A stretch of 64,000 nucleotides of DNA from Candidatus Bathyarchaeota archaeon (GTDB taxonomy: Archaea; Thermoproteota; Bathyarchaeia; Bathyarchaeales; DTEX01), in assembly GCA_018396655.1 (NCBI GenBank), contig JAGTQF010000001.1, positions 63,844 through 127,843 on the forward strand, read 5' to 3'. The notes beneath the pieces were generated by a model that did no database searches, had not been told where the DNA came from, and worked only from the letters and a program-made list of their open reading frames with translations. Made by a program: the position numbers and the translations under genes. Of this stretch, positions 2,710-27,629 are shown piece by piece; position 1 is the stretch's first letter; the number at the start of each line of letters is the position of its first letter.

Positions 2710-5703
2710 ATGGCTGTTTTCCCAAGCAAAACACTTTTACATAGGCTATTCCTTTATTCTCTGAATCTCATTGAGCAGCGTGGCTGGCGAGAGTTGGCGG
2801 CTGAGGAAACGCAGCAAATACATGCTCATGCTATAGAGAGAAATGTATTCGATTTGCTAGCCCGCCCCATACGTAAACTTATTGAAGAGAAGGGCTTCAA
2901 ATCCCCAACTGAGCCACAGTCAAAAGTTATACCCTTAATTCTTGAGGGAAAGAATGTTTTATTAATATCGCCAACAGCAAGTGGTAAGACTGAGGCTGCA
3001 ATACTCCCAATATTAAATATGCTCATTCAGATGCCGAAGAGGGAGCCGGGAATAAAAGTTCTATATATCACGCCTCTGAGGGCTTTAAACCGCGACATGC
3101 TTGAGCGTCTAGAATGGTGGTGCAATAATCTAGACATTAGGTTGGCTGTTAGGCACGGTGATACAGACGCAAATGAGCGCTCGAAGCAAGCTAGGAGCCC
3201 ACCGGACATGCTCATAACAACGCCGGAAACCCTCCAGTCTATATTGTCCGGTTGGATTATGCGCCGCCACCTCCAGCCCATAAGATGGGTTGTTGTTGAT
3301 GAAGTTCATGAGCTGGCTGATAGTAAGCGTGGAAGCCAACTGGCCCTTGCCCTTGAGAGGCTTAGGGCTATAACCGTAAAAGACTTCCAAATAATTGGGC
3401 TATCAGCAACTATTGGCACACCAGAGAGGGTTGCGCAGTTTCTCGTTGGGAATAATAGACCGATTGAGATAGTCCGCGTGCCAGTTGCCAGGTTAATGAG
3501 GCTTCAGATACTTTATCCTAAACCTGAACCACAAGATTATGAGCTCGCTTCAATGTTATTCACGCATCCGGAGGTCGCGGCTAGGCTCCGCATAATGCGC
3601 CAGCTAATTGAGAAGCATAATTCGGTCCTGTTATTCACGAATACTCGAACAATCTCAGAAATTCTGGCGAGCAGATTCAAAATATGGGATGTAAACTTCC
3701 CAGTCTCAATCCATCATGGTTCATTGGCCAAACCATCTAGAATTGCGGCTGAGAAGGGCTTGAAAGAGGGTGAACTGCGTGGTTTAGTCTGCACAAGCAG
3801 CCTTGAGCTGGGGATAGATGTTGGCAGAATAGACCTAGTTATACAGTATATGAGTCCAAGGCAGGTTACGCGCCTAATACAGCGTGTTGGCAGAAGCGGT
3901 CATAGGATTGGGCGCATGGCAAATGGCATAATCATAACGATGGATTCAGATGACACGCTGGAGGCCATGGTTATTGGCAGAAAAGCCTATAGGGAGGAGC
4001 TTGAACCCGTCGATATACCCGAGAAACCATTTGATGTTTTAGCCCATCAGATAGCAGCATTCCTGCTAAAGAGAAAACGCTTGGAATTCAATGAAATATA
4101 TGAGGTTTACAGCAAAGCATATCCCTACAGGGACTTAACAATGGATGATATAAAGCGGATTCTAGAGTATATGCATAATCGCTTCCCGAGACTTGCATGG
4201 GTCTCATTTGAGGATGGAGTTGTCCTAAAGCCTCGTAGAACAAAAGCCCTATTTGAATACTTCTTTGAGAACCTATCAATGATACCGGATGAAAAACACT
4301 ATCTTGTCATAGATAAGGATACAGATACAGCCGTTGGACTACTTGACGAGGCATTCGTGGCAGAATATGGTAAGCCAGGTGTTAAATTCATAATTCGTGG
4401 GAGCCCATGGAAAATAGTGAATGTGGACGCTGACAAAATCTATGTGAAGTCCGTTAATGACCCAACGGGTGCAATCCCAAGCTGGGTTGGCGAGGAGATT
4501 CCGGTGCCATTTGAGGTTGCGCAGGAAGTTGGTCAGATAAGGGGTTTTGTGGAAGAGCGGTTAAAGGTTGGTCTCAGCCCAGATGAGATAGCCGAAGAGC
4601 TATCGACCAAGTATCCCGCCGACAAGAAGACGATTTTAGACGCCATAGCAGAGACTGTTGAGCACGTTAAGATGGGTTATCCGGTTCCAACAGACAAGCG
4701 TATAATCGTTGAGGAGTGGGAGGACTTCATCATTTTACAGTGCAACTTCGGCTCCCTAACTAATAGGGCTTTAGCGCAGATACTAGGCCATATAGTATCT
4801 GAGATAACCGGATACTCAATCGTAGTCCAGCACGACCCATATAGAATTTTCATCCAAACGATGGGTGAAGTTAAGCCTGAAACCATCATAAATATACTTT
4901 CAGACCTCAAAAACTCAAGTGAAGAATTAATTAAAGAAACTTTGACGAGAGCCGTCATTAAAACTGGTATATTTAAGAGGCGTCTGATACATGTTGCCAG
5001 AAGATTTGGCGCAATACAGAAGTGGGTTGACTTTGAGAGCGTAAGCCTAAGAAATCTAATTAAGAGTTTCGAGGACACCATAATATATGATGAGGCTCTA
5101 AAAGAGGTCTTCACAAAAGACCTAGACCTCAAAAACTTAATTAATGTTCTGGATATGATGAGGCGGGGTGAGATAGAGGTCGTTAAGGTTGAGACTGGCG
5201 GTGAGGCAACGCCGATAGCTCGTGTTGGAATAGAGCGCGTGAGCATGAAGACGGACTTAATACCACCCGAGAAAATGCGTAGAATATTAATAGAGTCCGC
5301 AAAAGCTAGATTGCTTGGTGAGACGAGAACATTTGTCTGCACAGAATGTTGGGATTACATAGAGATGATAACCCTTAAAGACTTACCGGACAAGCCCTTA
5401 TGTCCAAAGTGCGGCTCACCGAAGCTTGGGATGCTTAATGTTGAGGAGGAAGAGGCTTATCCGTTGATAGAGAAGAAGGGTGAGAAGCTAACTAAAAGTG
5501 AAGAATACCTTAAGGATGAAGCTATTGAAACAGCGAAGATAATCTCAAAATATGGTAAGGCGGCAGCCATAGCACTATCTGGCAAGAGGCTTAGGTTAAG
5601 TGATGTCAGAGAAATACTCTTGAAGGAGAGTATGCTGACGGATAAATTCTTTGAGATGATAATTGAAGCTGAGCGTGAGGCGCTAAAACGCAGGTTCTGG
5701 TAG
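2710..5703 (+). CDS. lhr: Lhr-like large superfamily-2 ATP-dependent helicase
   Basis: 997 aa. Motifs present: Walker A PTASGKTEAA, DEVH box (VVVDEVHEL), SAT (LSATIG) and motif VI QRVGRSGHR. A long Lhr-type C-terminal region ends in a CxxC...CPKC zinc ribbon. Confidence 0.85.
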   Translation: MAVFPSKTLLHRLFLYSLNLIEQRGWRELAAEETQQIHAHAIERNVFDLLARPIRKLIEEKGFKSPTEPQSKVIPLILEGKNVLLISPTASGKTEAAILPILNMLIQMPKREPGIKVLYITPLRALNRDMLERLEWWCNNLDIRLAVRHGDTDANERSKQARSPPDMLITTPETLQSILSGWIMRRHLQPIRWVVVDEVHELADSKRGSQLALALERLRAITVKDFQIIGLSATIGTPERVAQFLVGNNRPIEIVRVPVARLMRLQILYPKPEPQDYELASMLFTHPEVAARLRIMRQLIEKHNSVLLFTNTRTISEILASRFKIWDVNFPVSIHHGSLAKPSRIAAEKGLKEGELRGLVCTSSLELGIDVGRIDLVIQYMSPRQVTRLIQRVGRSGHRIGRMANGIIITMDSDDTLEAMVIGRKAYREELEPVDIPEKPFDVLAHQIAAFLLKRKRLEFNEIYEVYSKAYPYRDLTMDDIKRILEYMHNRFPRLAWVSFEDGVVLKPRRTKALFEYFFENLSMIPDEKHYLVIDKDTDTAVGLLDEAFVAEYGKPGVKFIIRGSPWKIVNVDADKIYVKSVNDPTGAIPSWVGEEIPVPFEVAQEVGQIRGFVEERLKVGLSPDEIAEELSTKYPADKKTILDAIAETVEHVKMGYPVPTDKRIIVEEWEDFIILQCNFGSLTNRALAQILGHIVSEITGYSIVVQHDPYRIFIQTMGEVKPETIINILSDLKNSSEELIKETLTRAVIKTGIFKRRLIHVARRFGAIQKWVDFESVSLRNLIKSFEDTIIYDEALKEVFTKDLDLKNLINVLDMMRRGEIEVVKVETGGEATPIARVGIERVSMKTDLIPPEKMRRILIESAKARLLGETRTFVCTECWDYIEMITLKDLPDKPLCPKCGSPKLGMLNVEEEEAYPLIEKKGEKLTKSEEYLKDEAIETAKIISKYGKAAAIALSGKRLRLSDVREILLKESMLTDKFFEMIIEAEREALKRRFW

Positions 5704-10015: not shown

Positions 10016-11191
10016 ATGGATTTAAAGCGGGATTTATCGGTTAGGGAGAGATTTTTCGAGGTAGCTTTCTTTGGAAATCCAGATAAGATTCCGCTATCGT
10101 TGTGGGAAATCAGACCTGCAACTCTCAAACGCTGGTGGAAGGAAGGGTTACCCTATGGGGTCAGTGCCTCGGAGTATTTCAGGTTTGATATTTATGGCTT
10201 AAAGTCCATAAATATAGTCTCCTATCCATCCGAAGGATTTAGATGGGAGCTGAGCGACACGCTAGTTAATTTAGGTCCAATCCCCCCATTTGAGTACAAA
10301 ATTCTTAGGGAAGATGAGCGTTATCGCATTTGGATAGATAGTTTAGGCATAACGCAGATGGGCTTTCAGGATGATTGGAGAGATGGCTGGAGCGGCTTTG
10401 CAACCAGAACCTTCTTAGAATTTCCAGTTAAAACAAAAGAGGATTTTGAGAAGATTAAGAAGCGATATGATCCTTATTCGGTAGAGAGATATCCGCCAAA
10501 ATGGGGTGATATGATAAAGAAACTTAATGAGAGAGATGGAGCTTACTTGGTGAGCGTCTCTACTAGGGGGCCTTTCTGGTGGATTAGGGATATGATGGGA
10601 CTTGAAGCAACATTGATCTCTCTGTTTAAAGATAGAGAGTTAATTCATGAAATCCTGGAATTATATATAGATTTTCACTCTAAGGTTTTAAGAAGAGCGT
10701 TAGAGGAGGTTGAAGTAGATTATATTATATTAAATGAGGATATGGCTTATAAGCATGGACCGATGATTTCACCATCCCTCTTTAAAGAATACTTCTCACA
10801 GGTATACCATGAAATCACAAGCTTCTTTAGGAATAATGGTGTTAAAGTTATTCTGGTCGATAGTGATGGCAATATTGAACCACTTTTACCCGAACTTTTA
10901 AAGGTTGGGGTTAATGGGATGACGCCCTGCGAGGTTGCTGCTGGCATGGACGTTATGACACTTAGGCAAAAGTATCCTAACCTTATAATGATGGGTGGGA
11001 TTGACAAAAGAAAATTATCATCCTCAAAAGAAGATATAAATGGAGAAATTAATAGGGTTACGCCGGCAATAAAAATGGGTGGCTATTTTCCGGGAGTTGA
11101 CCATGCGGTTCCACCAGATGTTTCATTCGAAAACTTTAGATATTTCATTGATTCACTTAAGAAGATTTGCGGATGGATGAACCAAGCATAA
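10016..11191 (+). CDS. URO-D/MtaA-family (methylcobamide-type) methyltransferase paralog A
   Basis: 391 aa. Uroporphyrinogen-decarboxylase-like fold landmarks are ILNEDMAYKHGPMISPSLFKEYF and the C-terminal GGYFPGVDHAVPPDVSFENF. The position of the MtaA HxCG motif reads DSDG. Confidence 0.75.
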   Translation: MDLKRDLSVRERFFEVAFFGNPDKIPLSLWEIRPATLKRWWKEGLPYGVSASEYFRFDIYGLKSINIVSYPSEGFRWELSDTLVNLGPIPPFEYKILREDERYRIWIDSLGITQMGFQDDWRDGWSGFATRTFLEFPVKTKEDFEKIKKRYDPYSVERYPPKWGDMIKKLNERDGAYLVSVSTRGPFWWIRDMMGLEATLISLFKDRELIHEILELYIDFHSKVLRRALEEVEVDYIILNEDMAYKHGPMISPSLFKEYFSQVYHEITSFFRNNGVKVILVDSDGNIEPLLPELLKVGVNGMTPCEVAAGMDVMTLRQKYPNLIMMGGIDKRKLSSSKEDINGEINRVTPAIKMGGYFPGVDHAVPPDVSFENFRYFIDSLKKICGWMNQA

Positions 11192-11285
11192 ATCTGAAAA
11201 ACAAACCCCGGGGTCCATTTCTTAGAAAAACTTAAAACTGGGTGAAGTATATTCTCTGAAATATAATCTAATCTCTAAAAGTAAA

Positions 11286-13487
11286 GTGAGGCTAATCAAT
11301 ATGGTTGATGTGCGCGAGTTAATTTTATCATCTCAGCCAGAGTCTCTAGACTATCCGGTATTAAGCACGGATCATTCTGGACACATAGTTTATTTGGCTA
11401 CTAGCGGCTATCCTAAGCTAGCTGCGGACCATATACTTAATGGAGAGGTTGTTGGGCGTCTGGAGGGCATTGTTGGAGGGGTGCTTCGGCAGTTCAACCT
11501 CATATCCAATAGGATTCTCTTGGGGGTTTCAGTGGATGATTTACTTAGGGATGGAAAAAGTGTTCCTCTTCTAGCGAGGATTTACGAGACATTAATTCAG
11601 ATGGCGCTAAATATTATTGGTTTAGAGAAGGATATCGTTGGCTTCTCTGATGAGGAGACTACTAAAACCTTTGTAAATATACTCGAGACCTTAAAGGGTT
11701 TAGAGGTTTTAGAAAGGAAGATTTTTGGTGGCGAGGCCCCGGTAGCTCACGCTATTATTGACATATTTCTGGCAGACATGAAGAAGGTTATGAGCGGCTT
11801 TTATCGTCCGCCGGGCTCGATGGTAGCATATATTGCCAGAGAGATAGAGAAAGAAGTTAAAATCGACTCTATTATGGAGTCCTTCCTCTATTCTGCCAAA
11901 AAGCAAATCGAGAATAACATATACTACAGGCTTGGTAAGCTTGGCATGTGCAGATTTGGTAATGACTACGCTCTTGGGCTTAGATGGCTTAGGCATTTAG
12001 GCTTTGTCCAGGTCTCAACAAATCCAGTTTTGGCGGCGGCAGCCTATGAGGATGACCCATCTCTTTGGGAGGGCTATAGAAGTGAGGATTTATGCCCAGA
12101 TTTTAAAACTGCAATTAAGCAGGATGAAGAGTGGCTTAAAAGACCGGATGCTCATGGGGATGAGTTGGCTGCCAAAGGAACTGAGGTCAGCATTTGGCCG
12201 AATCTTGTTGTATTCAGGCCAATAGCTATAGCATCAAATATGCGTCATGGTTTAGTTAGTCTCCAACTAAACCCAACGATAGCGGATAATTATGAAAGAA
12301 GTCTTCAAGAAGCCCTAAAAATATACTTTGACGCCGAGGAGTTTCTGAGAAAGTATGACTATTATCTTTTATGGGGCTATTCGACATGTGTTGAGCGCGG
12401 TAGACCAAACATTGTCTTTAAGGTGGCTGGTAGCTCTCCAGCAGCCATCGAGTTGACACGAAAGCTCGAAAGCCTTGGAATAGGCACAAATAACACAGTA
12501 ACATTTACAGTCTCTCAGGAAGTAGAGTTAATATTGGCGAAAATAGAGGGGCGGTCCGAAGCCGTTAAGAAGGGTATATCCCTAACAACGGTATATGAAA
12601 CGAATATGGGCGGGAGACTTGACGATCACATAAGAGAAGTTCAAGCTGAGGAGTTGGTAAGATACGCTCTTGAAAAGTTGGAGGATAAGGAGGGTGCCTT
12701 AAAAAGGCTTGCTGAGGCTTTAGGTGCGTGGGATGCGGTTAAAGACAAGGAGAGTTTAGATGAGAAAATAAGGGTTATTTGTAGCCGGCGTTACCTGAGC
12801 CCATTAAATAAGAAGCCATTTGTAGATTTTCTTGCGAGCTGTGGAATACCATCCAGCTCGAAAGAGACGGTCGCAGAATACTTGACTAGACTTGAGGAAG
12901 ACATCGGATACTGCGGCATCCTCGTGACCAAAAGAGTTTATGAAATCTTCTTTAATCCAGAGAATAGGCTTAAATGGTTAGAGTATATTCGGTCAAAATA
13001 TGGACTTACGAGCGAGCAGGCAGAGTATGTTCTTCAAGGGATAGATGTTTTACCAGCCTCAAAAAGGAAGCCCAAAGAAACACTACTAACACTCTCAAGC
13101 CTCCACATGACGCACACAGAGTTTCCAAATCACCAAATGAACGTCCTACTTGAAAGCCTAAAAGAATCATTCAGAATCAAAGATTACCAAGAATCAGTCT
13201 TAATCGAGGTTGACCCAGAAATAGCGCGTAGATTAATGAGCGGTTGGAGAAAAACCGCTGAGGAGTTTATAAAGGCTTATGAGCTAACCTCTGAACAGAT
13301 CAGGGTTTTAAGGGAAGTTGGATTTGTAAATCCGACGGAGAAATATGGGTCTAGGGGCATTAAGCCATCAGAATGGGGGCTCTTCGGGGCGACTGTGAAA
13401 ACTATGGATGAGTTTACGGGAAGCTACGAATTGTTTAAGAAGAGATGTATAGAATATGCTTCCAAGTTTGTTAAGGAAAAACAATAA
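11286..13487 (+). CDS. large transaldolase-fold protein of unknown function
   Basis: 733 aa. Transaldolase-superfamily landmarks appear in order: GFVQVSTNPVL, GLVSLQLNP, NIVFKVAGSSPAAIELTRKLESLGIGTNNTVTFTVSQ and ETNMGGRLDDH. About 230 aa of unknown N-terminal sequence and a long helical C-terminal region flank them. Confidence 0.6.
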   Translation: MRLINMVDVRELILSSQPESLDYPVLSTDHSGHIVYLATSGYPKLAADHILNGEVVGRLEGIVGGVLRQFNLISNRILLGVSVDDLLRDGKSVPLLARIYETLIQMALNIIGLEKDIVGFSDEETTKTFVNILETLKGLEVLERKIFGGEAPVAHAIIDIFLADMKKVMSGFYRPPGSMVAYIAREIEKEVKIDSIMESFLYSAKKQIENNIYYRLGKLGMCRFGNDYALGLRWLRHLGFVQVSTNPVLAAAAYEDDPSLWEGYRSEDLCPDFKTAIKQDEEWLKRPDAHGDELAAKGTEVSIWPNLVVFRPIAIASNMRHGLVSLQLNPTIADNYERSLQEALKIYFDAEEFLRKYDYYLLWGYSTCVERGRPNIVFKVAGSSPAAIELTRKLESLGIGTNNTVTFTVSQEVELILAKIEGRSEAVKKGISLTTVYETNMGGRLDDHIREVQAEELVRYALEKLEDKEGALKRLAEALGAWDAVKDKESLDEKIRVICSRRYLSPLNKKPFVDFLASCGIPSSSKETVAEYLTRLEEDIGYCGILVTKRVYEIFFNPENRLKWLEYIRSKYGLTSEQAEYVLQGIDVLPASKRKPKETLLTLSSLHMTHTEFPNHQMNVLLESLKESFRIKDYQESVLIEVDPEIARRLMSGWRKTAEEFIKAYELTSEQIRVLREVGFVNPTEKYGSRGIKPSEWGLFGATVKTMDEFTGSYELFKKRCIEYASKFVKEKQ

Positions 13488-13591
13488 TCTTAACTAAACT
13501 AATGTACTTCTAAAATATTTCTTCATCCTTCTATCGATTTATTCTAGCAAGGCTTATATTTGTGGCTTGAGTGTAGTTTCTCGGAGGGTGG

Positions 13592-14749
13592 ATGTATTTG
13601 GCGGTTAATAGGTTCGAGTGTGTTCTTTCGACACTACTACATGAAGAACCGCCTATTACACCACAGGTCTTAGGTTTTACGAATGAAATGTCAAGAGCCA
13701 AATTTATCCCGATTATAGAGGCGGATATTGCTAGAAGGGCCGTTGAATTTGAAAGTGAGGTGAGCAGCGCTTTATGTGAAATAACGGCCGCTGGACTAAA
13801 GCATATAGATAAAGCCCTAAAAGTGGCTGATTACATGGATAACTTTATAGTTGGCGTTGGCGGAGGCGGAATTAGAATTAAAAAGATTATTGAGAGTGGA
13901 GAGGAATGGAGTATTGTAGAGTGGGAGACTGGAGCTAAATGGCGTGTTGGGACATCTAAAACGGTTTGGGCGCGGCAATATATAGACTACCCAGTAAAAA
14001 CTGAGGACGACATAGATAACCTTGAGCTTCCAGACCCAGATGACCCATCAAGGTATGAGGGTATTGAAAAAGCAATAAAATATGTTCTTGACAAGGGTTT
14101 CTTCCCAGCGTGTGGCATTAATGGCTTCTTTTCAGGCGTTTGGTACTTCCTGAGAGGTCCGCTGGAAGTAATTCTAAAGGACATGTATATGAGAAGAGAT
14201 TTCGTAAGGAAGCTGATTGATAAATTTGGCGAATTTAATCTAAGGGCTGAAAAGAACCTTCTTGAGAGAGGCGCCATGATGATAGATTGGCCCGACGACT
14301 TAGGCTATAGAGGTGGAACTTTTATGAATCCTAAACTCTATGAGGAACTCATATATCCATGGCATGTGAAGGCCATAGAATTAGCACACAAATATGGCGC
14401 CTTCGTTAATATGCACAGCCATGGAAACATAATGTCCCTAATTCCCCTCTTCGTTAAAGCCAATCTAGATATGCTAAATCCAGTAGGACCAACCGATAAT
14501 ATGGACCTTAATAGTTTGAAGGAAAAATATGGCGATAAAATATGCTTTCTTGGTGGTTTAAGCAAAAACATCGGCTTCATGAGCGCTGAGGAATTGAAGG
14601 AGCACCTACTTGATAGACTTAGAATTGGAAGCCCTGGTGGAGGCTATATTCTAGGTTCAGAGGGCGATATACCCGTGGAAATGAGCGTAGAAAACTTTGA
14701 ATTGCTCCTTAAAATGAGTAGAAAATATAGAAGAAACAAAGTATCATGA
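13592..14749 (+). CDS. URO-D/MtaA-family methyltransferase paralog B
   Basis: 385 aa. Landmarks are DDLGYRGGTFMNPKLYEE and GGGYILGSEGDIPVEMSVENF. The HxCG position reads HSHG. A Shine-Dalgarno-like GGAGGGTGG precedes the ATG. Confidence 0.75.
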   Translation: MYLAVNRFECVLSTLLHEEPPITPQVLGFTNEMSRAKFIPIIEADIARRAVEFESEVSSALCEITAAGLKHIDKALKVADYMDNFIVGVGGGGIRIKKIIESGEEWSIVEWETGAKWRVGTSKTVWARQYIDYPVKTEDDIDNLELPDPDDPSRYEGIEKAIKYVLDKGFFPACGINGFFSGVWYFLRGPLEVILKDMYMRRDFVRKLIDKFGEFNLRAEKNLLERGAMMIDWPDDLGYRGGTFMNPKLYEELIYPWHVKAIELAHKYGAFVNMHSHGNIMSLIPLFVKANLDMLNPVGPTDNMDLNSLKEKYGDKICFLGGLSKNIGFMSAEELKEHLLDRLRIGSPGGGYILGSEGDIPVEMSVENFELLLKMSRKYRRNKVS

Positions 14750-14772
14750 AGATTCATTCCCTTTTCCTTTTA

Positions 14773-14788
14773 AATCATGACCATGATT
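14773..14788. promoter_or_regulatory. 16-bp palindrome AATCATG-AC-CATGATT, candidate operator
   Basis: Perfect 7-bp inverted arms with a 2-nt spacer. It lies 24 nt after the paralog B stop and 85 nt before the corrinoid-protein start. The spacer is too short for an RNA hairpin loop. Confidence 0.25.
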
Positions 14789-14872
14789 AACCTTCCTAGT
14801 ATATTAGTAGATGAGAAAAAGAACCCTACCTAAACTCTTAAATAATAGTGCTGTTTCTTCTCCTAGTAATAG

Positions 14873-15532
14873 GTGGCCTTCATGAGCAATAGAGAAGAGA
14901 TTTTAAATAAAATTAGAGATGCCATCGTAAACCTAGATATAGATAATATACAGAGATTATGTGAAGAAGCCCTTAAGGCTGGCATACCAGCATACGAAAT
15001 AGTTATGAACGGTATGTCTAAAGGTATGGAGATTGTTGGTGAAAAATACGAGAGAAACGAGTATTTCTTGGCCGAGCTAATTATGGCTGGCGAAGTAATG
15101 AAGGAGGGAATGAAGGTTTTAGAGCCGCATCTTAAGGGCGGAGAAGTAAAAAAGATTGGTAAGGTTGTCATTGGAACAGTTAGGGGTGATCTGCATGATA
15201 TCGGCAAGAATATTGTTGCAACACTACTGAGCGCGGCTGGATTTGAGGTCATAGATTTGGGCGTGGATGTTCCACCAGAGAAGTTCGTTGAAGCTGTTAA
15301 GGAATATAGACCTGATATAGTTGGCATGTCGGCCCTACTGACAACAACAATGATTGAAATGGAGAATGTCATTAAAGCGCTCAAGGAGGCTGGATTGAGG
15401 GATAAGGTGAAGATAATTATTGGTGGAGCCCCCGTGACAAAAGAGTTTGCAGAAAAAATAGGAGCCGATGCTGCGGCAAGAGATGCTGTTGAAGGTGTGA
15501 ATATATGTAAATCGTGGATGGAGCAGAAGTGA
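14873..15532 (+). CDS. corrinoid (cobalamin-binding) protein, MtaC/MtbC-like
   Basis: 219 aa. An N-terminal helical cap is followed by a B12-binding Rossmann domain with GTVRGDLHDIGKNIV (DxHxxG), MSALLTTT (SxL) and IIIGGAP (GG). Confidence 0.9.
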   Translation: MAFMSNREEILNKIRDAIVNLDIDNIQRLCEEALKAGIPAYEIVMNGMSKGMEIVGEKYERNEYFLAELIMAGEVMKEGMKVLEPHLKGGEVKKIGKVVIGTVRGDLHDIGKNIVATLLSAAGFEVIDLGVDVPPEKFVEAVKEYRPDIVGMSALLTTTMIEMENVIKALKEAGLRDKVKIIIGGAPVTKEFAEKIGADAAARDAVEGVNICKSWMEQK

Positions 15533-16611
15533 CATCACTTTTAGATGAAATGAAACCACGCGAGAGAATTAAACTTATCCTTCAACATCGCGAAGCAGAC
15601 CATATTCCAATTCACGATAGCCCCTGGACTGCAACTATAGATCGCTGGAGATCTGAGGGGTTACCCCCTGGCATTTCACCAGCCGACTATTTTGGTTACG
15701 AGATTGTCATTTTTGATGCTGATACAAGCCCGCGTTTTCCCACCGAGGTGTTGTATGAAAATGAGGAGTATATTGTTGAGAGAGATTCTTATGGTGCTGT
15801 CAGAAAGAACCATAAAGATTACTCTACTACACCGATGATAATCGATTATCCCTGTAAGAGCAGGGAGGATTGGGAGAGAATTAAGCCCAGACTTAAGGCT
15901 GACGATTATAGGGTTAATTGGGTTTCTAGTCTTCAGTCTTTTTATCGCGAATATAGCCGAGGTCGCTTCATAATGTATGGTGCTGCGGTGGGATATGATA
16001 AAATACAGCATTACGTAATTTCTGAAAGGCTATTAAAAGCAATAATTAGGGAGCCCGACTGGGTTATTGACATGTACTGGACTGATGCCAAGATCGTTAT
16101 GGAAATGTGTGAGCGTATGATAAGAGGTGGCTTCAAGTTTGACGGTGCCTTCCTATATTGCGATTTAGGTTATCGAAATGGTCTCTTTTTCTCACCAAAA
16201 CATTTCGAGGAACAGCTTCATCCGGTCTTTAAAGAATTATGCCGTTTCTTTCACAGCCATGGCATGTACGTCTTTCTACATTCATGTGGCAGAGTCAAGG
16301 ATTTAATACCATACTTTATTGAGGAGGGAATTGACTGCCTCCAACCGCTTGAAGTTAAGGCCGGAATGGATTTAGTTGAACTCAAGGAAAAGTACGGTGA
16401 TAAAATGACTTTTATGGGAGGTATAGATGTAAGGCTTATGGCGCTTGATGACCCAAAACCAATAGAAGAGGAAATAAAAAGGAAAATTACGGTCGCTAAA
16501 GAGGGAGGAGGCTACATATATCATTCAGACCATTCGATACCTAAGAACGTCAGCTTTCAAAATTACAAGAGAGTCATAGAGCTAGTTAAAAAATATGGAA
16601 AATACAGCTGA
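15514..16611 (+). CDS. URO-D/MtaA-family methyltransferase paralog C (retains the HxCG motif)
   Basis: 365 aa. Landmarks are CDLGYRNGLFFSPKHFEE, LHSCGRV and GGGYIYHSDHSIPKNVSFQNY. The GTG start at 15514 overlaps the corrinoid-protein gene by 19 nt; an alternative ATG lies at 15547. Confidence 0.8.
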   Translation: MDGAEVTSLLDEMKPRERIKLILQHREADHIPIHDSPWTATIDRWRSEGLPPGISPADYFGYEIVIFDADTSPRFPTEVLYENEEYIVERDSYGAVRKNHKDYSTTPMIIDYPCKSREDWERIKPRLKADDYRVNWVSSLQSFYREYSRGRFIMYGAAVGYDKIQHYVISERLLKAIIREPDWVIDMYWTDAKIVMEMCERMIRGGFKFDGAFLYCDLGYRNGLFFSPKHFEEQLHPVFKELCRFFHSHGMYVFLHSCGRVKDLIPYFIEEGIDCLQPLEVKAGMDLVELKEKYGDKMTFMGGIDVRLMALDDPKPIEEEIKRKITVAKEGGGYIYHSDHSIPKNVSFQNYKRVIELVKKYGKYS

Positions 16612-22397: not shown

Positions 22398-22475
22398 GCG
22401 GCCGTCGTCTAGCCTGGTCTAGGACATCGGCCTGCCACGCCGGTAACCCGGGTTCAAATCCCGGCGGCCGCACCA
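22398..22475 (+). tRNA. tRNA-Gly (anticodon GCC), intron-less, with CCA encoded
   Basis: Manual cloverleaf: GCGGCCG-TC-GTCT-AGCCTGGTCTA-GGAC-A-TCGGC-CTGCCAC-GCCGG-TAAC-CCGGG-TTCAAAT-CCCGG-CGGCCGC-A-CCA. Confidence 0.9.
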
Positions 22476-22624
22476 AGAGTTTCTTCTAAAATCATTATGA
22501 GCCATCTTATGAGTTTCGAAATGGGATGCAGGCTTAAAGACCTTAGGTCTCCAAGAGTCAGGTTGAAGCTAACCTTAATTTTGCTGTATGCTTATATCTT
22601 TATTATTGTGTGGGGTGCTAGAGG

Positions 22625-25021
22625 TTGTCGGTTTATCGTTTCTGGCTGCTGGACATAAATTATGTTGTTAAGGGGCATCAGCCTGAGGTTTGGCTTTGGG
22701 GTATGGGAAGTGATGGGAAGAATGTTCTGATCATAGATAGAGGTTTCTTATCATACTTTTATGTTATCCCATCCTCTGGCGAAGATGTTGAAAGATTGGC
22801 TGAGAGAATAGCGCGGCTAAAGGCTAATCTATCTTTTATGGCCGGACTGGAGGTTGTTGAACGTAGGCTTTTCGGCAAACCGGTGAAGGCTATAAAAATC
22901 TACTGCCAGGACCCGGATTTGATATCTGAGTATGTGAAGGTTGTTTTGAAGGTTAGGGGCGTTGAGAGCTGCCTAGAAGATGATTTAAGGTATTCAATGC
23001 GGTATCTTCTCGACAATAATGTTGTTCCATGCGGCTGGCATGAGATTGAAGCCGAAGAGATACCTAACACAATAGGCGTTCAAGTTGATAAAGTGTTGCT
23101 GGCAAAATCTAGGCCTAAATATCTTCCAGACATTCTTGAGATACCTAAACTAAGGATTTTGAGCTTCTCAATGGTGTGCTATAGCCCTAAAGGCGCTCCA
23201 AAACCTGAGAGAAATCCGGTCGTTATCATCTCGGTGGTAACTAATGAGGGTGATGAAAGGCAGTTTGTGGCTGAATCCTCTGAAGGCGATTATAATATTG
23301 TCAGGGATTTTATTGATTATGTGAGGAGGTTTAACCCAGATATAATTGTAGGCTTTGAGAGTAATCGAAGAGACATACCCTATTTGCTGGTGAGAGCGAA
23401 GAAGAATGGGTTAGCGCTTAAGATTGATAGGGCTAATACTGAGCCGCATACGAGCACATATGGTCATATGTCTGTGACTGGTAGAGCAAACATAGATATA
23501 TTTGATTATGCGGATGAGTTCCCAGAAGTTAAAGTTAAGACCCTAGAAAACATTGCCGACTATTTAGGCGTCATGAGAATTAAGGAGAGAACAATAATCG
23601 AGGATGTTGATGTCGCCCAATACTGGGAGGACCCTGCTAAGAGACCAATTCTACTAAGGTTCTCTATGGATAATGCGAGATGTATAATGGGTATAGCTGA
23701 AGCCATATTAGACTTCGCTATCCAGCTCTCAAGCCTAGTGGGCCTACCCCTAGACCATATTGGCACCGCGGCTGTGGGCTTTAGGGTTGAGTGGTTTTTG
23801 ATGCGCCATGCGTGTCAAATGGGTGAGCTAATACCAAAAAGGGTTGAGAGACCCTATGTTCCATATGCTGGGGCAATAGTTCTTGAGCCTAAGCCTGGAA
23901 TACATGAAAATATTGCGGTCTTAGATTTTAAGTCCATGTATCCGAATATAATGATTGCCTACAATGTTTCACCTGACACATATTTATCTCCAGAAGAGCC
24001 AGACCCACCTTCCGGGGTCTATGTCGCACCGGAAGTTAACCATAGGTTTAGAAAGGAGCCCTCTGGCTTCTATCGCGAGGTTCTCTTAAGGCTCATTAAG
24101 GCTAGAGATTACATTAGGGTTGAGCTCAAAAAGTTTAGGCCTGGAAGCCCGGAGTATAAATTGCTTGATGCACGTCAGAAGGCTATTAAGGTTATTACTA
24201 ATGCGACTTATGGTTATGCTGGATGGATAGGTGCTAGATGGTATATTAAGCCTGTCGCTGAGGCTGTTACCGCGTGGGGCAGATACACGATTACAAATAC
24301 TATTAAGATGGCCAGGAGCCTTGGTTTAGAAGTTGTTTATGGCGATACTGACAGCATTTTCATAAGGTATGAGCCTAGTAAAGTTGAGAAACTATCTAAG
24401 ATGATTGAGGAGAGTTTGGGTTTAGAGATAAAGCCGGATAAAATCTATACACGAATACTTTTTACTGAAGCTAAGAAGCGTTACTGTGGGCTTATGCCGG
24501 ATGGAACACTTGATATCGTTGGTTTAGAGGTTGTTCGAGGTGACTGGGCTAATGTCGCCAAGAATATTCAGGAGAAAGTTCTTGAGATAGTCTTGAAGGA
24601 GCAGTCAGCCAGAAAGGCTGTTGAGTATGTGCGCAAGTACATAGCGGACCTTAGAGATAGAAGGGTTCCATATAGGGATTTGGTTATATGGAAGTCTCTG
24701 GCGAAGTCCCTTGAGGAGTATGAGGTTAGAGCACCGCATGTTGAGGCTGCTAAGATGCTTCAGAAGGAGGGCTGGGTGCTGGCTGCTGGTGATAAAATAG
24801 GATACGTTATAACTATAGGCTCCGGGAAACTCTATGAACGGGCTAAGCCCTACACCTTAGCATCATATGATGAGGTTGACATAGAATATTACGTGACAAA
24901 CCAGGTTATTCCAGCAGCCCTAAGAATACTTTCCCTCTTTGGCGTTAGGGAGGAGGAGCTTTTATCCCCGAAGTCGGCTAAACCTCAAAGCCTTCTAGAC
25001 TTCTTTGGTAGGGACAAGTAA
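22625..25021 (+). CDS. polB: family B DNA polymerase (polymerase motifs intact, exonuclease motifs substituted)
   Basis: 798 aa, collinear with Thermococcales PolB. Motif A is LDFKSMYPNIMIAYNVSPDT, motif B is KVITNATYGYAG and motif C is VVYGDTDSIF. Exo I reads FSMV instead of FDIE, and Exo III reads FSMDN instead of YSMED. The start is TTG. Confidence 0.9.
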   Translation: MSVYRFWLLDINYVVKGHQPEVWLWGMGSDGKNVLIIDRGFLSYFYVIPSSGEDVERLAERIARLKANLSFMAGLEVVERRLFGKPVKAIKIYCQDPDLISEYVKVVLKVRGVESCLEDDLRYSMRYLLDNNVVPCGWHEIEAEEIPNTIGVQVDKVLLAKSRPKYLPDILEIPKLRILSFSMVCYSPKGAPKPERNPVVIISVVTNEGDERQFVAESSEGDYNIVRDFIDYVRRFNPDIIVGFESNRRDIPYLLVRAKKNGLALKIDRANTEPHTSTYGHMSVTGRANIDIFDYADEFPEVKVKTLENIADYLGVMRIKERTIIEDVDVAQYWEDPAKRPILLRFSMDNARCIMGIAEAILDFAIQLSSLVGLPLDHIGTAAVGFRVEWFLMRHACQMGELIPKRVERPYVPYAGAIVLEPKPGIHENIAVLDFKSMYPNIMIAYNVSPDTYLSPEEPDPPSGVYVAPEVNHRFRKEPSGFYREVLLRLIKARDYIRVELKKFRPGSPEYKLLDARQKAIKVITNATYGYAGWIGARWYIKPVAEAVTAWGRYTITNTIKMARSLGLEVVYGDTDSIFIRYEPSKVEKLSKMIEESLGLEIKPDKIYTRILFTEAKKRYCGLMPDGTLDIVGLEVVRGDWANVAKNIQEKVLEIVLKEQSARKAVEYVRKYIADLRDRRVPYRDLVIWKSLAKSLEEYEVRAPHVEAAKMLQKEGWVLAAGDKIGYVITIGSGKLYERAKPYTLASYDEVDIEYYVTNQVIPAALRILSLFGVREEELLSPKSAKPQSLLDFFGRDK

Positions 25022-25041: not shown

Positions 25042-26181
25042 CTATTCAAGTATATCATCAAATGTAAGTAGATTGACACTTAAGGGCTGCTTAACAACCT
25101 CAGATATTCTGGCCGCAACAAGATACTTGATATTCTTCTCGCTTGCTATGTCAACGAGCCTCTGCGTTATTATTCCATCGAAGACAACGGTGTTTACGCC
25201 CTCAAACTCCCTCAGTCTATCAGCCAGTTCACTAACCGGTAGCTTAGCTATCTGCTCCATCTTATCATCGAAGAGTATGGCTTCTAATGTTCCCTTGAGG
25301 CTCTCAGCCGCCTCAACGATGTTTTTTGGGACGAGAATTTTTTTGCGCCTCTTCTTTCGCTCAGAAATCTCCTCAACTGGAACCTTATTTCTTAATGCTT
25401 CCTCAATCTCTTTGGCTGTTAAATCTTCAACCTCCTTACCCCTAGGAGCCCTAGCCACATATTTTATGTTGGCAACTTGAAGGAGTTCTTTGAGAATTAG
25501 GTCTCCCCCATGGTCTCCATCTAGGAATGCGGTTGCCTCCTTCTCTCTAGTCAGTTTGATTACTGTCTCCGGTATTCTTACACCCTCCAGCGCTATAACG
25601 TTGTAAATGCCGTGCTTAACTAGGTTTATCACGTCAGCTCTACCCTCGACAATAATAATTTCCTTGGCTGAATCAACCTCTGGTCCAGCCGGAAGCTTCT
25701 CCGGTCCATACTCTCTAATCTTAGCCATCTTAAGTATCTCTGAAACCTCACGGAATATCTCCTCAGTCTCCGGTATGGTCTCCAGACTCCATTTGTGGAG
25801 TATCTCTTTAGCCCTTTCGATTATTGCCTTTCTCTTAGTCTCCCTAACATCCTCGATTCTCTCCAGGGTTACGCGAGCTGAGCAGGGGCCGACCCTATCT
25901 ATACTCTCGACGCTAGCGGCTATTATTGCTGTTGAGACTTTATCTAAACTAGTTGGTATAATGATTGTTCCAGTAGTCTTATTATCCCTCTGAGATGATA
26001 TCTCAACCTCTATCCTGCCAATTCTCCCAGTCTTCTGAAGCTCCCTCAAATCAAATTCGGTTCCAAAGAGCCCCTCAGTTTGGCCAAAAACAGCGCCTAT
26101 TACATCTGGCTTCTCAACTATTCCATCGACCTCAAACTTTGCCTTAATCACGTATTTAACCGCAAATGACTGTGAAGTCAT
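25042..26181 (-). CDS. dnaG: archaeal DnaG-type Toprim protein (primase homolog, exosome-associated)
   Basis: 379 aa. The characteristic N-terminus is KYVIKAKFEVDGIVEKPDVIGAVFGQTEGLFG. The Toprim core is IIIVEGRADVINL...FLDGDHGGDLI. Confidence 0.85.
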   Translation of the reverse strand: MTSQSFAVKYVIKAKFEVDGIVEKPDVIGAVFGQTEGLFGTEFDLRELQKTGRIGRIEVEISSQRDNKTTGTIIIPTSLDKVSTAIIAASVESIDRVGPCSARVTLERIEDVRETKRKAIIERAKEILHKWSLETIPETEEIFREVSEILKMAKIREYGPEKLPAGPEVDSAKEIIIVEGRADVINLVKHGIYNVIALEGVRIPETVIKLTREKEATAFLDGDHGGDLILKELLQVANIKYVARAPRGKEVEDLTAKEIEEALRNKVPVEEISERKKRRKKILVPKNIVEAAESLKGTLEAILFDDKMEQIAKLPVSELADRLREFEGVNTVVFDGIITQRLVDIASEKNIKYLVAARISEVVKQPLSVNLLTFDDILE

Positions 26182-26323: not shown

Positions 26324-26734
26324 TTAAAGACGAGCTTTCCTCTTAAGGTTCTCAATGTAGGTTGCTAACCCCTCTACGTCCTTTAAATCATTCCCTAAGA
26401 GACTACATAATTTTCTCCAGAATTCAATGTTAAGTTTAACTTTGCTCCTCTCGAGATTTCTGGCTAGGCGCTCAGTTAACTCTCTACCATGCTCATCAAA
26501 GTCCATTAGGAGTATAATTTCTCTATCACCAATCGACTCAATCTTGTCTATAATATCTTGAAGGCTTTTACCATGAGATTTAACCGCCAATATATTGCTC
26601 TCAATACCTATGGCCTTAAGTGCTTCAATATCTCTCTCACCCTCAACAATCAATAGGGCTCCCGTGAAAGTCTCACCTTTTAAATCCTCAATTAAGCAGT
26701 TTATCTTCTCAATCTTTCGCTCAAGACTTGACAT
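26324..26734 (-). CDS. small Toprim-domain protein (COG1658 / RNase M5-like)
   Basis: Toprim motifs are LLIVEGERDIEALKAIG and LLMDFDEHGRELTERL. I prefer the ATG at 26734. The ORF track extends to a TTG at 26800, which would overlap the upstream gene by 41 nt. Confidence 0.7.
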   Translation of the reverse strand: MSSLERKIEKINCLIEDLKGETFTGALLIVEGERDIEALKAIGIESNILAVKSHGKSLQDIIDKIESIGDREIILLMDFDEHGRELTERLARNLERSKVKLNIEFWRKLCSLLGNDLKDVEGLATYIENLKRKARL

Positions 26735-26759
26735 AATCCTCTTTTCCCGCACTAAAACA

Positions 26760-27629
26760 TCATATTTTGTGTGAACCCAGTATTTTTCCTTTTCCACCAA
26801 ACCTAACTATCGCTATAGGCTTATGCTTCACGCTTTTAAGCATATTCAATGTAACGCCGGATAAATCAACCCCAAATCTCTCAGCCATATCCCAAACTGT
26901 TAAGCCGGCTCCAGAACCCATAGCCTTATTTACAGCCTCAGCTATATCCAATGCTAGGTTTATATCAATCTCAGCTCCAGCTAACGCTAAGGGTGTTGAC
27001 CTACGCTTAAGCCTAAGGGCTCTGCCTACAACGTACGCTATGAAACCAAATAACGTATATATTCCTTTTAGGGGTTTTGGTCGGTGGGTGAAGTGCAGAC
27101 CACCAATAGAATATGTTTTATCAGTATCAATAATCATAACGGCAATTCTTCTACCAGTCTTATTCTCGATATGCTGTTTAATCCGTTCGGCAATATTCTG
27201 CGGGTTTTTTAGTGGTAGGCTTACATATGCATAAGGAAGATTACTCCCATCTATGCCGCCCTCGGAACCCCACATTAGTGCATGAAGAAAACCAGCGTAT
27301 TTTAATGCAACCTCTTTATGGGCAGCTCCCTCCCTAACCGGGTATTTTCTAAGCCGCTCAATATTCTCTCTTTTAAGATGGCATATTCTTCCAAGAAAAT
27401 AACCCCATATTATTCTCATCCAAAATCTGGCAATCAAATATGCAAGTAAGCTAGGCTTAATCTTAGATTCATCAATCACTAAGCCCTCACATATTGATAG
27501 GGCTTTCTCTGAAACAACGATTAAGTCGCCATCTGAAATTCTACCATTAACGGCATTTAGTATCCTATCAAGATAACTGTCGCCGGGCATCCAGTAGTCA
27601 GTCTTGATGGCTTCAACCGAAAAGTCCAT
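26760..27629 (-). CDS. CofE-like (F420-0:gamma-glutamyl ligase family, COG1478) protein
   Basis: 289 aa. DGDLIVVSEKALSICEG, GGIDGSNLP and TGRRIAVMIIDTD align by eye with CofE-family landmarks. The actual substrate is unknown. Confidence 0.55.
   Translation of the reverse strand: MDFSVEAIKTDYWMPGDSYLDRILNAVNGRISDGDLIVVSEKALSICEGLVIDESKIKPSLLAYLIARFWMRIIWGYFLGRICHLKRENIERLRKYPVREGAAHKEVALKYAGFLHALMWGSEGGIDGSNLPYAYVSLPLKNPQNIAERIKQHIENKTGRRIAVMIIDTDKTYSIGGLHFTHRPKPLKGIYTLFGFIAYVVGRALRLKRRSTPLALAGAEIDINLALDIAEAVNKAMGSGAGLTVWDMAERFGVDLSGVTLNMLKSVKHKPIAIVRFGGKGKILGSHKI

What the first reader, a model, noticed from the sequence alone, without database searches (positions are those of the whole stretch)
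22625..25021. Family-B DNA polymerase with intact polymerase motifs but substituted exonuclease catalytic residues
The protein is collinear with Thermococcales PolB over its whole length. Motifs A (DFKSMYPN), B (KVITNATYGY) and C (YGDTDS) are intact. In the 3'-5' exonuclease domain, Exo I reads LSFSMVCY (23165-23176) where proofreading PolBs have FDIE; both carboxylates, equivalent to D141/E143, are replaced by Ser and Val. Exo III reads RFSMDNA (23660-23677) where they have YSMEDA, so Tyr becomes Phe and the catalytic Asp becomes Asn. Only the Exo II Asp (RRDIPYL) is retained. Inference: this is a polymerase-active enzyme lacking proofreading, a combination reminiscent of eukaryotic Pol alpha/zeta rather than a typical archaeal replicative PolB. 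Whether it is the cell's only PolB is unknown from this window.
Basis: partly seen in the sequence, partly recalled or inferred. Interest (0 to 1): 0.55.

Follow-up and report, generated by a model that had tools for sequence, protein, structure and literature searches.

The report
Proofreading-dead PolB3 polymerase of Bathyarchaeia
This gene encodes the Bathyarchaeia version of the archaeal DNA polymerase PolB3; its DNA-copying site is intact but its error-correcting nuclease site was lost long ago across the whole lineage, so these very abundant archaea carry a naturally non-proofreading family-B polymerase.

Summary
ORF 22625-25021 (+, 798 aa) is a full-length family-B DNA polymerase. Motifs A, B and C are canonical. 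Four of the five DEDDy exonuclease residues are replaced: Exo I D->S and E->V, Exo III Y->F and D->N. Only the Exo II Asp remains.

It is not an error or pseudogene. The same state is found in all 120 closest database homologues and in all 80 species-level Bathyarchaeia genomes retrieved. Polymerase motifs A and C are near-invariant there, and the exonuclease domain is under purifying selection (dN/dS 0.15). The predicted fold is confident (TM 0.87-0.91 to Pyrobaculum PolB, 5MDN).

The gene is the positional orthologue of crenarchaeal PolB3. It groups with Thermoprotei and Korarchaeota PolB3 (bootstrap 100) and keeps the convergent dnaG neighbour (66 of 73 loci). Exo-dead relatives also occur in Culexarchaeia and in a MAG labelled Nitrososphaeria.

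Best reading: an active polymerase without proofreading, probably tethered to PCNA and serving as an accessory enzyme. The resemblance to Pol alpha/zeta is functional analogy only.

I could not determine whether PolD or another PolB shares the genome. I found no prior report. I rate it a new variant of a known kind, of moderate interest.

The parts
22625..25021 (+). polB3 gene: family-B DNA polymerase, 798 aa, TTG start, stop codon included
   Evidence: ORF. Pfam DNA_pol_B (E 2.7e-65) and DNA_pol_B_exo1 (E 4.6e-21). Best PDB match 5mdn_A at E 1e-243. TTG is the only start codon between the in-frame TAG at 22619-22621 and the conserved RFWLLD N-terminus.
22625..23014 (+). N-terminal domain (aa 1-130) with most of the archaeal uracil-pocket positions retained (Y13, Y44, P97, I100, L121, Y123; Pfu P36 is Ser43 here)
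   Evidence: Alignment to Pfu PolB 2jgu/3a2f residues 2-131; family conservation. The pocket residue list comes from my own knowledge of Pfu/Tgo PolB and was not tested functionally.
23015..23779 (+). 3'-5' exonuclease-fold domain (aa 131-385): fold retained, catalytic site lost
   Evidence: pLDDT is mostly 85-97. dN/dS is 0.148 against a 94%-identical relative. The exo/pol identity ratio is the same as in exo-intact clades.
23159..23182 (+). Exo I remnant LSFSMVCY. Ser182 replaces the catalytic Asp and Val184 replaces the catalytic Glu
23363..23386 (+). Exo II remnant NRRDIPYL. Asp250 is retained; the conserved Phe preceding it is Arg249 here
   Evidence: The Phe is present in 94% of exo-intact representatives and is not kept in the exo-dead set.
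23447..23473 (+). Conserved HTSTYGHMS segment between Exo II and Exo III, modelled as short beta strands. It probably corresponds to the exo beta-hairpin
   Evidence: P274, H275, S277, Y279, G280, H281 and S283 are conserved at 82-100% in exo-dead representatives. Secondary structure. The hairpin assignment is my inference.
23657..23677 (+). Exo III remnant RFSMDNA. Phe346 replaces the Tyr and Asn350 replaces the catalytic Asp
23864..23875 (+). Y-GG/A-type motif YAGA (aa 414-417)
   Evidence: aligned with SYTGG of Pfu.
23924..23947 (+). Polymerase motif A, DFKSMYPN (catalytic Asp434, steric-gate Tyr439)
   Evidence: D434, F435, Y439 and P440 are invariant in 64 sequences. DFKSMYP was found in 72 of the 79 Bathyarchaeia loci read at this motif; the others have A for S or T for K, and one locus is masked.
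24188..24217 (+). Polymerase motif B, KVITNATYGY (fingers; K522, N526, Y529, G530)
   Evidence: these residues are invariant.
24338..24355 (+). Polymerase motif C, YGDTDS (catalytic Asp574 and Asp576)
   Evidence: DTDS is present in 79 of 80 loci; the remaining one reads DTDA.
24473..24484 (+). KKRY (KxY) primer-binding motif
   Evidence: K617, K618 and Y620 invariant.
24986..25006 (+). C-terminal PIP-like tail QSLLDFF. The core L790-x-x-F793-F794 is present, but the Gln is one residue off the canonical register
   Evidence: L790 and F793 are invariant. An L-x-x-aromatic-aromatic tail is found in 94 of 120 homologues, and L-x-x-F in 25 of the other 26. The tail is disordered in the model (pLDDT below 50). 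PCNA binding is inferred.
25042..26181 (-). Archaeal dnaG (Toprim primase/exosome-associated protein), convergent with polB3 and 20 nt from its stop codon. It is a synteny marker for PolB3 orthology
   Evidence: NCBIfam NF003108 DnaG, 504 bits against a cutoff of 300. The same convergent arrangement occurs in 66 of 73 Bathyarchaeia loci. It was described for crenarchaeal polB3 in PMC4104785.

Best explanation
The gene is the Bathyarchaeia orthologue of crenarchaeal PolB3. It makes a full-size family-B polymerase with these features:
- The polymerase active site (motifs A, B, C, KxY, Y-GG/A) is intact, so the enzyme should extend primers with dNTPs.
- The DEDDy 3'-5' exonuclease site has lost three of its four metal-binding carboxylates, the catalytic Tyr and the Exo II Phe. 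Two-metal hydrolysis of a mispaired 3' end should therefore be abolished.
- The exonuclease domain survives as a constrained structural or DNA-handling module.
- A PIP-like C-terminal tail probably tethers the enzyme to PCNA.

The loss is ancient. It covers all sampled Bathyarchaeia and also Culexarchaeia and other relatives.

The most likely cellular role (inferred, not shown) is a non-proofreading accessory polymerase working beside a proofreading replicase, presumably PolD with its DP1 exonuclease. Candidate tasks are gap filling and strand-displacement synthesis during Okazaki-fragment maturation and repair, the role now assigned to PolB in Thermococcus. Loss of exonuclease 'idling' would favour displacement.
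For: Shown here:
- Motif identities and coordinates.
- An unambiguous alignment to exo-proficient 5MDN.
- Clade-wide conservation of the substitutions, with near-invariant polymerase motifs.
- Purifying selection on all three regions: dN/dS 0.11 (N-terminal), 0.148 (exo) and 0.084 (pol).
- The exo domain diverges no faster relative to the pol domain than in exo-intact clades.
- A confident PolB fold: pLDDT 87, TM 0.87/0.91 to 5MDN.
- Beyond the five DEDDy residues, the positions that lose conservation in the exo-dead set include the Exo II Phe, with Tyr244 and Glu222 conservatively replaced. The polymerase motifs are unaffected.
- Placement in the TACK PolB3 clade with bootstrap 100, and Bathyarchaeia + Culexarchaeum with bootstrap 99.
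- The nearest exo-intact relatives are Thermofilaceae/Thermoprotei, Sulfolobaceae and Korarchaeota PolB3.
- Convergent dnaG synteny in 66 of 73 loci, matching the crenarchaeal polB3 context (PMC4104785).

From the literature:
- PolD is reported in all archaeal superphyla except Crenarchaeota (PMC6355029; PMC7544198).
- Crenarchaeal PolB3 already has weak exonuclease activity in Aeropyrum (PMC5911459).

From my own knowledge: D141A/E143A substitutions are the standard way to make exo-minus Pfu, Vent and 9°N polymerases.
Against: - No biochemical data exist for any member.
- The Exo II Asp (kept in 115/120) and an acidic residue at position 349 are retained, so trace or altered nuclease activity cannot be formally excluded.
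- I could not verify that PolD, PolB1 or PolB2 co-occur in this genome or in any Bathyarchaeia genome. The window holds no other polymerase gene.
- The cellular role is therefore inference by analogy.
- The PIP-like tail is off the canonical register.
Confidence: 0.72

Rival explanations
1. The main role is translesion or mismatch-extension synthesis, a Pol zeta/PolB2-like mutagenic extender, rather than lagging-strand or gap-filling synthesis.
For: Exo-dead family-B enzymes known so far include the TLS polymerases Pol zeta and archaeal PolB2/Dpo2 (PMC7544198; PMC8764526, listed). B3 enzymes are said to have either replication or repair functions.
Against: The polymerase site is fully canonical, unlike PolB2, which has a rearranged motif C. 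The gene sits in a replication neighbourhood: dnaG in 66 of 73 loci and MCM nearby in some. The uracil-pocket residues typical of high-fidelity archaeal PolBs are largely kept.
Confidence: 0.18
2. The exonuclease is still active through non-canonical residues, for example the retained Exo II Asp250, Asp/Glu349, Ser182 and Asn350, so proofreading is altered rather than lost.
For: Asp250 is kept in 115/120 homologues, an acidic residue at 349 in 120/120, Ser182 in 120/120 and Asn350 in 118/120. This shows constraint at the former active site. Very weak activities were reported for S. solfataricus PolB2 despite replaced residues (PMC4104785).
Against: Three of four metal ligands and the catalytic Tyr are gone. 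In more distant exo-dead relatives these positions carry unrelated residues (W, H, K, G, L; R, Q, V), and the Exo II Asp is also lost in many. This argues against a conserved alternative catalytic set.
Confidence: 0.06
3. The protein is a non-catalytic scaffold or regulator, like the C-terminal half of Pol epsilon, with neither activity used.
For: Inactivated PolB modules that serve structural roles are known (PMC2669801 and PMC7544198).
Against: Every polymerase catalytic and dNTP/primer-binding motif tested is conserved across 55-100% identity. dN/dS in the pol domain is the lowest of the three regions at 0.084.
Confidence: 0.03
4. The finding is a sequencing or assembly artefact, a pseudogene, or a viral/mobile-element polymerase.
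For: The window comes from a metagenome-assembled genome. Some homologues carry inteins (P0119).
Against: The ORF is intact, and identical or near-identical proteins occur in independent datasets (P0001-P0003). The state is shared by 80 species-level genomes. Chromosomal synteny with dnaG is conserved. The surrounding genes are core housekeeping genes such as aEF1-alpha and aIF2-gamma. A scan of 2.9 million viral contigs gave only four matches of about 90 residues at 30-36% identity.
Confidence: 0.01

Closest known systems
Crenarchaeal PolB3 (e.g. Pyrobaculum calidifontis PolB, PDB 5MDN; Aeropyrum pernix PolII/PolB3; Sulfolobus Dpo3)
   Same: - Same length and domain order.
- 47-50% identity to 5MDN over the whole length, with TM 0.87-0.91.
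- Same clade, bootstrap 100.
- Same convergent dnaG neighbour.
- Same motif A variant (SMYPN) and a C-terminal LLDF-type tail.
   Different: 5MDN and its exo-intact relatives carry FDIE, FD and YxxxD. Here four of the five DEDDy residues and the Exo II Phe are replaced. The published view is that PolB1 and PolB3 contain conserved exonuclease motifs (PMC5911459).
Thermococcales PolB (Pfu, KOD, 9°N, Tgo) and their engineered exo-minus variants (D141A/E143A)
   Same: Collinear fold (TM about 0.8). The polymerase motifs, N-terminal uracil-pocket positions and a PCNA-binding tail are similar. The engineered exo-minus enzymes are the laboratory equivalent of what this lineage did naturally.
   Different: Only 28-30% identity. 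The natural Thermococcales enzymes are strong proofreaders. The loss here is natural, ancient, and also involves Exo III and the Exo II Phe.
Archaeal PolB2 (Dpo2), the 'inactivated' PolB family
   Same: It is an archaeal family-B enzyme with a non-conserved Exo I, and it is thought to work without proofreading.
   Different: PolB2 lacks Exo III altogether and has only one Asp in motif C, with a compensating D(K/R) motif (PMC7544198). Here the Exo III helix is present, motif C is a canonical YGDTDS, and the protein groups with B3 rather than B2.
Eukaryotic Pol alpha and Pol zeta catalytic subunits
   Same: They are family-B polymerases with an active polymerase site and a retained but catalytically dead exonuclease domain (PMC7544198).
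   Different: There is no specific relationship: Pol alpha scores E about 1e-43 and Pol zeta about 1e-21, against 1e-243 for archaeal B3. This protein has no C-terminal Cys-rich metal-binding domain; it has only seven Cys, the last at position 621. It also lacks the N-terminal extensions. This is independent, convergent loss.

Membership tests
Family-B DNA polymerase (PF00136 + PF03104) | Polymerase motifs A (DxxSLYPS), B (KxxxNSxYG) and C (YGDTDS) with both catalytic Asp residues | tested here: met
   DFKSMYPN, KVITNATYGY and YGDTDS. Pfam DNA_pol_B at E 2.7e-65.
Family-B DNA polymerase (PF00136 + PF03104) | N-terminal domain plus exonuclease-fold domain preceding the polymerase domain | tested here: met
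   PF03104 at E 4.6e-21. Model pLDDT is high across aa 1-385. TM 0.87-0.91 to 5MDN.
Proofreading (DEDDy) family-B polymerases | Exo I DxE, Exo II D, Exo III YxxxD catalytic residues | tested here: not met
   The residues are S182/V184, D250 and F346/N350, so only one of five is retained. The same holds in 120 homologues and 80 species loci.
Archaeal PolB3 group | Phylogenetic placement with B3 enzymes rather than B1 or B2 | tested here: met
   PDB E-values are 1e-243 (P. calidifontis) and 1e-105 (Pfu), against 3e-44 for Sso PolB1 1s5j. In the neighbour-joining tree the clade with Thermoprotei/Korarchaeota B3 has bootstrap 100. No B1 or B2 sequences were included in the tree.
Archaeal PolB3 group | Convergent dnaG immediately downstream (crenarchaeal polB3 gene context, PMC4104785) | tested here: met
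   dnaG lies at 25042-26181 on the minus strand. The arrangement is found in 66 of 73 related loci.
Archaeal PolB3 group | Conserved exonuclease motifs, as the literature states for B1 and B3 | tested here: not met
   literature statement in PMC5911459. The protein is a B3 orthologue by descent but an atypical member by active-site content.
Archaeal PolB3 group | C-terminal PCNA-interacting peptide | tested here: inconclusive
   The tail is QSLLDFF, with invariant L790 and F793 and a disordered conformation. The Gln register is shifted by one, and binding was not tested.
Archaeal PolB3 group | N-terminal uracil-recognition pocket | tested here: inconclusive
   Six of seven pocket positions are conserved or conservatively replaced, and Pfu Pro36 is Ser43. 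Function is not testable here.
Archaeal PolB2 (inactivated PolB) | Motif C with a single Asp, Exo III absent, D(K/R) motif | tested here: not met
   YGDTDS is intact and the Exo III helix is present. The PolB2 definition is from PMC7544198.
Eukaryotic Pol alpha/zeta (Delta-like clade) | C-terminal Cys-rich metal-binding domain that binds a B-subunit; membership of the Delta-like clade | tested here: not met
   There is no Cys after residue 621. The similarity scores are much weaker than to archaeal B3.
Any active DNA polymerase / any inactive exonuclease | Measured primer extension and absence of 3'-5' exonuclease activity | not testable with these tools
   This requires purified protein.

The most novel reading that the evidence does not exclude
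PolB3 lost proofreading once, early in the history of the PolD-bearing Thermoproteota (Bathyarchaeia, Culexarchaeia, part of Nitrososphaeria and unnamed relatives). It has since been kept for hundreds of millions of years as a dedicated non-proofreading, PCNA-bound replisome polymerase. That would be an independent archaeal invention of the Pol alpha/Pol zeta type of division of labour, with all proofreading delegated to PolD-DP1. In the stronger form, this exo-dead enzyme is the only family-B polymerase in these cells.
Probability: 0.3. Interest if true: 0.7.

Novelty: new variant of a known kind. Interest (0 to 1): 0.55.

Why it matters
Bathyarchaeia are among the most abundant archaea in sediments, yet almost nothing is known about how they replicate.

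- A lineage-wide, naturally exo-minus PolB3 contradicts the textbook statement that B1 and B3 enzymes carry conserved exonuclease motifs.
- It shows that loss of proofreading in an otherwise intact family-B polymerase is not confined to eukaryotic Pol alpha/zeta or the odd PolB2 family.
- It gives a natural experiment for asking how archaea split work and fidelity between PolD and PolB.
- It provides natural exo-minus polymerases from hot-spring lineages, which may be thermostable, as candidates for applications that now rely on engineered D141A/E143A mutants.

Tried and rejected
1. Inventory of other polymerases.
- I annotated every window ORF of 250 aa or more that could be a polymerase. I found Lhr helicase, DnaG and housekeeping genes, but no PolD, PolB or PolY.
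- Long ORFs in the 80 related loci gave MCM, AOR and ACS-type genes but no DP2.
- A genome-wide inventory was impossible.

2. Literature. Ten full-text searches and several papers, including the supplements of PMC7544198, were checked. I found no statement about exonuclease loss in Bathyarchaeia PolB and no explicit PolD inventory for Bathyarchaeia. This is a limited negative, because subscription papers are not searched.

3. NCBIfam. No equivalog cut-off was reached for the polymerase, so that library gives no finer name.

4. Single versus multiple loss. The neighbour-joining bootstrap for monophyly of all exo-dead sequences is only 51%, so the question is unresolved. No maximum-likelihood software was available.

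5. Cys185/Cys353 pair. I considered whether this pair at the former active site forms a new disulfide or metal site.

6. Viral origin. Rejected.

7. A caution on my own analysis. The 'exo-intact' comparison group was defined by having DEDYD. The 100% conservation of those five residues there is circular, and only the additional positions (Exo II Phe, Tyr244, Glu222) are independent.
Full report
**1. The observation**

ORF 22625-25021 on the + strand encodes 798 residues. TTG at 22625 is the only possible start codon, because an in-frame TAG lies at 22619-22621. Residues 5-13 (RFWLLDINY) already align with residue 2 onward of the closest solved structure.

| Motif | Sequence | Residues |
|---|---|---|
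| Exo I region | LSFSMVCY | 179-186 |
| Exo II | RRDIPYL | 248-254 |
| Exo III | RFSMDNA | 345-351 |
| Motif A | DFKSMYPN | 434-441 |
| Motif B | KVITNATYGY | 522-531 |
| Motif C | YGDTDS | 572-577 |

Pfam sees DNA_pol_B (E 2.7e-65) and DNA_pol_B_exo1 (E 4.6e-21).

The best PDB match is the exo-motif-bearing polymerase of Pyrobaculum calidifontis (5mdn_A, E 1e-243). It aligns collinearly over residues 5-795 without gaps around the exonuclease motifs. FDIEVY pairs with FSMVCY, NGFDWPYL with NRRDIPYL, and RYVLDDV with RFSMDNA.

The enzyme has therefore lost the Exo I Asp and Glu, and the Exo III Tyr and Asp. It has also lost the Exo II Phe that precedes the retained Asp.

**2. It is real and old, not an error**

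The window derives from a Bathyarchaeia genome. P0002, 100% identical, is an NCBI protein of 'Candidatus Bathyarchaeota archaeon' on a 129-kb contig.

Conservation in the 120 best homologues (62-100% identity):

| Position | State | Count |
|---|---|---|
| Exo I Asp | Ser | 120/120 |
| Exo I Glu | Ile or Val | 118/120 |
| Exo III Tyr | Phe | 117/120 |
| Exo III Asp | Asn | 118/120 |
| Exo II Asp | kept | 115/120 |

In 80 species-representative Bathyarchaeia genomes (55-77% identity), none of the 79 in which the Exo I region could be read has a DxE at Exo I. Motif A keeps DFKSMYP in 72 of the 79 loci that could be read there (the others carry A for S or T for K). Motif C keeps DTDS in 79 of 80.

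Against a 94%-identical relative (L081), dN/dS is 0.107 overall, 0.148 in the exonuclease domain and 0.084 in the polymerase domain. At matched polymerase-domain divergence, the exonuclease domain is no more diverged in exo-dead pairs than in exo-intact pairs (ratio 0.70-0.74 against 0.73-0.75). The domain is therefore kept under constraint even though its catalytic residues are gone.

An AlphaFold2 model is confident (pLDDT 87, pTM 0.80) and preserves the Exo I strand and the Exo II and Exo III helices. It superposes on 5MDN with TM 0.87/0.91 and on Thermococcales PolBs with TM about 0.8.

**3. What it is**

The protein belongs to the PolB3 lineage of the TACK archaea (Thermoproteota).

- It scores E 1e-243 against P. 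calidifontis PolB and 1e-105 against Pfu PolB. It scores only 3e-44 against Sulfolobus PolB1 and 1e-48 to 1e-21 against eukaryotic Pol delta, alpha and zeta.
- In a neighbour-joining tree of 94 full-length sequences, Bathyarchaeia form a clade with bootstrap 100. Bathyarchaeia plus Candidatus Culexarchaeum have bootstrap 99.
- That group together with the exo-intact PolB3 of Sulfolobaceae, Korarchaeota and a Thermofilaceae-like group has bootstrap 100.
- dnaG lies convergently 20 nt downstream (25042-26181; NF003108, 504 bits). The same arrangement is present in 66 of 73 Bathyarchaeia loci. Makarova et al. described exactly this context for crenarchaeal polB3 (PMC4104785).

The gene is thus a vertically inherited positional orthologue of PolB3. 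It is not a stray paralogue and not a mobile-element polymerase. A scan of viral contigs found only matches of about 90 residues at 30-36% identity.

**4. Extent of the loss**

Among representatives of 50%-identity clusters, degenerate exonuclease motifs are not limited to the query's group. They also appear in:

- Candidatus Culexarchaeum nevadense (P0121/P0271);
- a MAG labelled Nitrososphaeria (P0124/P0285);
- a more divergent Bathyarchaeia group (P0132);
- several unnamed or mis-binned clusters.

In the tree all of these fall in one group, sister to the exo-intact Thermoprotei and Korarchaeota sequences. Support for monophyly is only 51%, so one loss versus several remains open.

In the distant members the former catalytic positions hold unrelated residues, and even the Exo II Asp is often gone. 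This argues against a conserved replacement active site.

Apart from the five DEDDy residues, the exo-domain positions that are conserved in exo-intact representatives but not kept in the exo-dead set are few. The Exo II Phe is lost outright. Tyr244 and Glu222 are conservatively replaced by Phe and Asp. The change in the exo domain is concentrated at the nuclease site.

**5. How it most likely works**

Shown by sequence:

- The polymerase site is canonical: catalytic Asp434, Asp574 and Asp576; steric-gate Tyr439; fingers Lys522, Asn526, Tyr529 and Gly530; KKRY; and Y-GG/A as YAGA.
- Three of the four carboxylates that hold the two metal ions of the exonuclease are missing, together with the Tyr.

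It follows from established knowledge of DEDDy exonucleases, and from the routine use of D141A/E143A to make exo-minus Pfu, Vent and 9°N enzymes (my own knowledge), that proofreading should be abolished.

Inferred:

- The disordered C-terminal tail QSLLDFF probably binds PCNA. Leu790 and Phe793 are invariant, although the Gln is one residue off the canonical register.
- Most N-terminal uracil-pocket positions are kept, so read-ahead stalling at uracil may persist.

Inferred by analogy: the enzyme is an accessory, non-proofreading polymerase working beside PolD.

- PolD is reported for all archaeal groups except Crenarchaeota (PMC6355029; PMC7544198).
- In Thermococcus, PolB works on the lagging strand and is the better strand-displacing, Okazaki-maturing enzyme (PMC13136892).
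- Aeropyrum PolB3 already has distinctly weak exonuclease activity (PMC5911459).
- Loss of exonuclease idling would favour strand displacement (my own knowledge of Pol delta exo-minus behaviour).
- A translesion or mismatch-extender role like Pol zeta or PolB2 is the main rival for the cellular function.

**6. What could not be settled**

The window contains no other polymerase gene. I could not inventory PolD, PolB1, PolB2 or PolY in this or any other Bathyarchaeia genome with the tools left. No enzymatic property was measured.

**7. Comparison with the known, and novelty**

Exonuclease-dead family-B polymerases are a known kind: Pol alpha, Pol zeta, the C-terminal half of Pol epsilon, and archaeal PolB2 (PMC7544198). 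This protein is not a member of any of those families.

- It keeps a canonical motif C and an Exo III helix, unlike PolB2.
- It has no Cys-rich C-terminal domain, unlike Pol alpha and zeta.
- It is a B3 orthologue by descent.

[quoted passage not shown] It discusses exonuclease loss only for B2/G2 among the B1-3 groups. Ten full-text searches found no report of an exo-dead PolB3 or of this feature in Bathyarchaeia. I therefore rate it a new variant of a known kind. The caveat is that subscription literature and supplementary figures were not fully searchable.

**8. Verdict**

The Pol alpha/zeta comparison is downgraded to convergence.
- Interest is moderate (0.55). A specialist would find a class-wide natural exo-minus PolB3 noteworthy and directly testable, but the phenomenon of a dead exonuclease in a B-family polymerase is itself familiar.

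Noticed in passing
window 22625-22705 (start of polB): The NCBI protein model for this gene (P0002, 772 aa) starts at Met27. That cuts off 26 conserved N-terminal residues, including the Tyr13 uracil-pocket position. The TTG at 22625 is the only start compatible with the alignment to 5MDN and with family conservation.
   Followed up: yes
window 22398-22475 (+): A tRNA-Gly(GCC) gene with an encoded CCA end lies about 150 nt upstream of polB.
   Followed up: partly
window 26324-26800 (-), also L081 5288-5698: A second, small (158 aa) Toprim-domain protein (PRK04017-like 'hypothetical protein') sits directly next to dnaG. An F420-0:gamma-glutamyl ligase-like gene follows it. The trio is conserved in the close relative L081.
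   Followed up: partly
window 10016-16611 (+): Three paralogous URO-D/MtaA-like methyltransferase genes lie at 10016-11191, 13592-14749 and 15514-16611. They flank a 733-aa ORF (11286-13487) that has only a weak transaldolase-family match. This may be a methyl-transfer gene cluster.
   Followed up: partly
window 46398-49112 (-): A 904-aa protein has two AAA+ ATPase modules fused to a Lon-protease C-terminal domain, which is an unusual architecture for an archaeal Lon.
   Followed up: no
P0119 (homologue); P0123, P0124, P0141 and others: Several relatives carry inteins, inserted within motif A (between DFK and S..YPN in P0119) or at motif C. The window's gene has none.
   Followed up: partly
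L046 7880-9955; similar ORFs in L048 and L051: In some Bathyarchaeia the MCM helicase gene lies a few kb downstream of polB3-dnaG, forming a small replication gene neighbourhood.
   Followed up: partly
L040, L061; P0288, P0339: Contigs carrying this archaeal polymerase are deposited under bacterial or unrelated names (Candidatus Acidoferrum, Limnocylindrales, 'bacterium HR11', Aciduliprofundum). These are probably mis-binned contigs in public MAGs.
   Followed up: no
window 2710-5703 (+): A large Lhr-type DEAD/H helicase (997 aa, with DEAD_assoc and WH_Lhr domains), a DNA-repair helicase, lies about 17 kb from polB.
   Followed up: no
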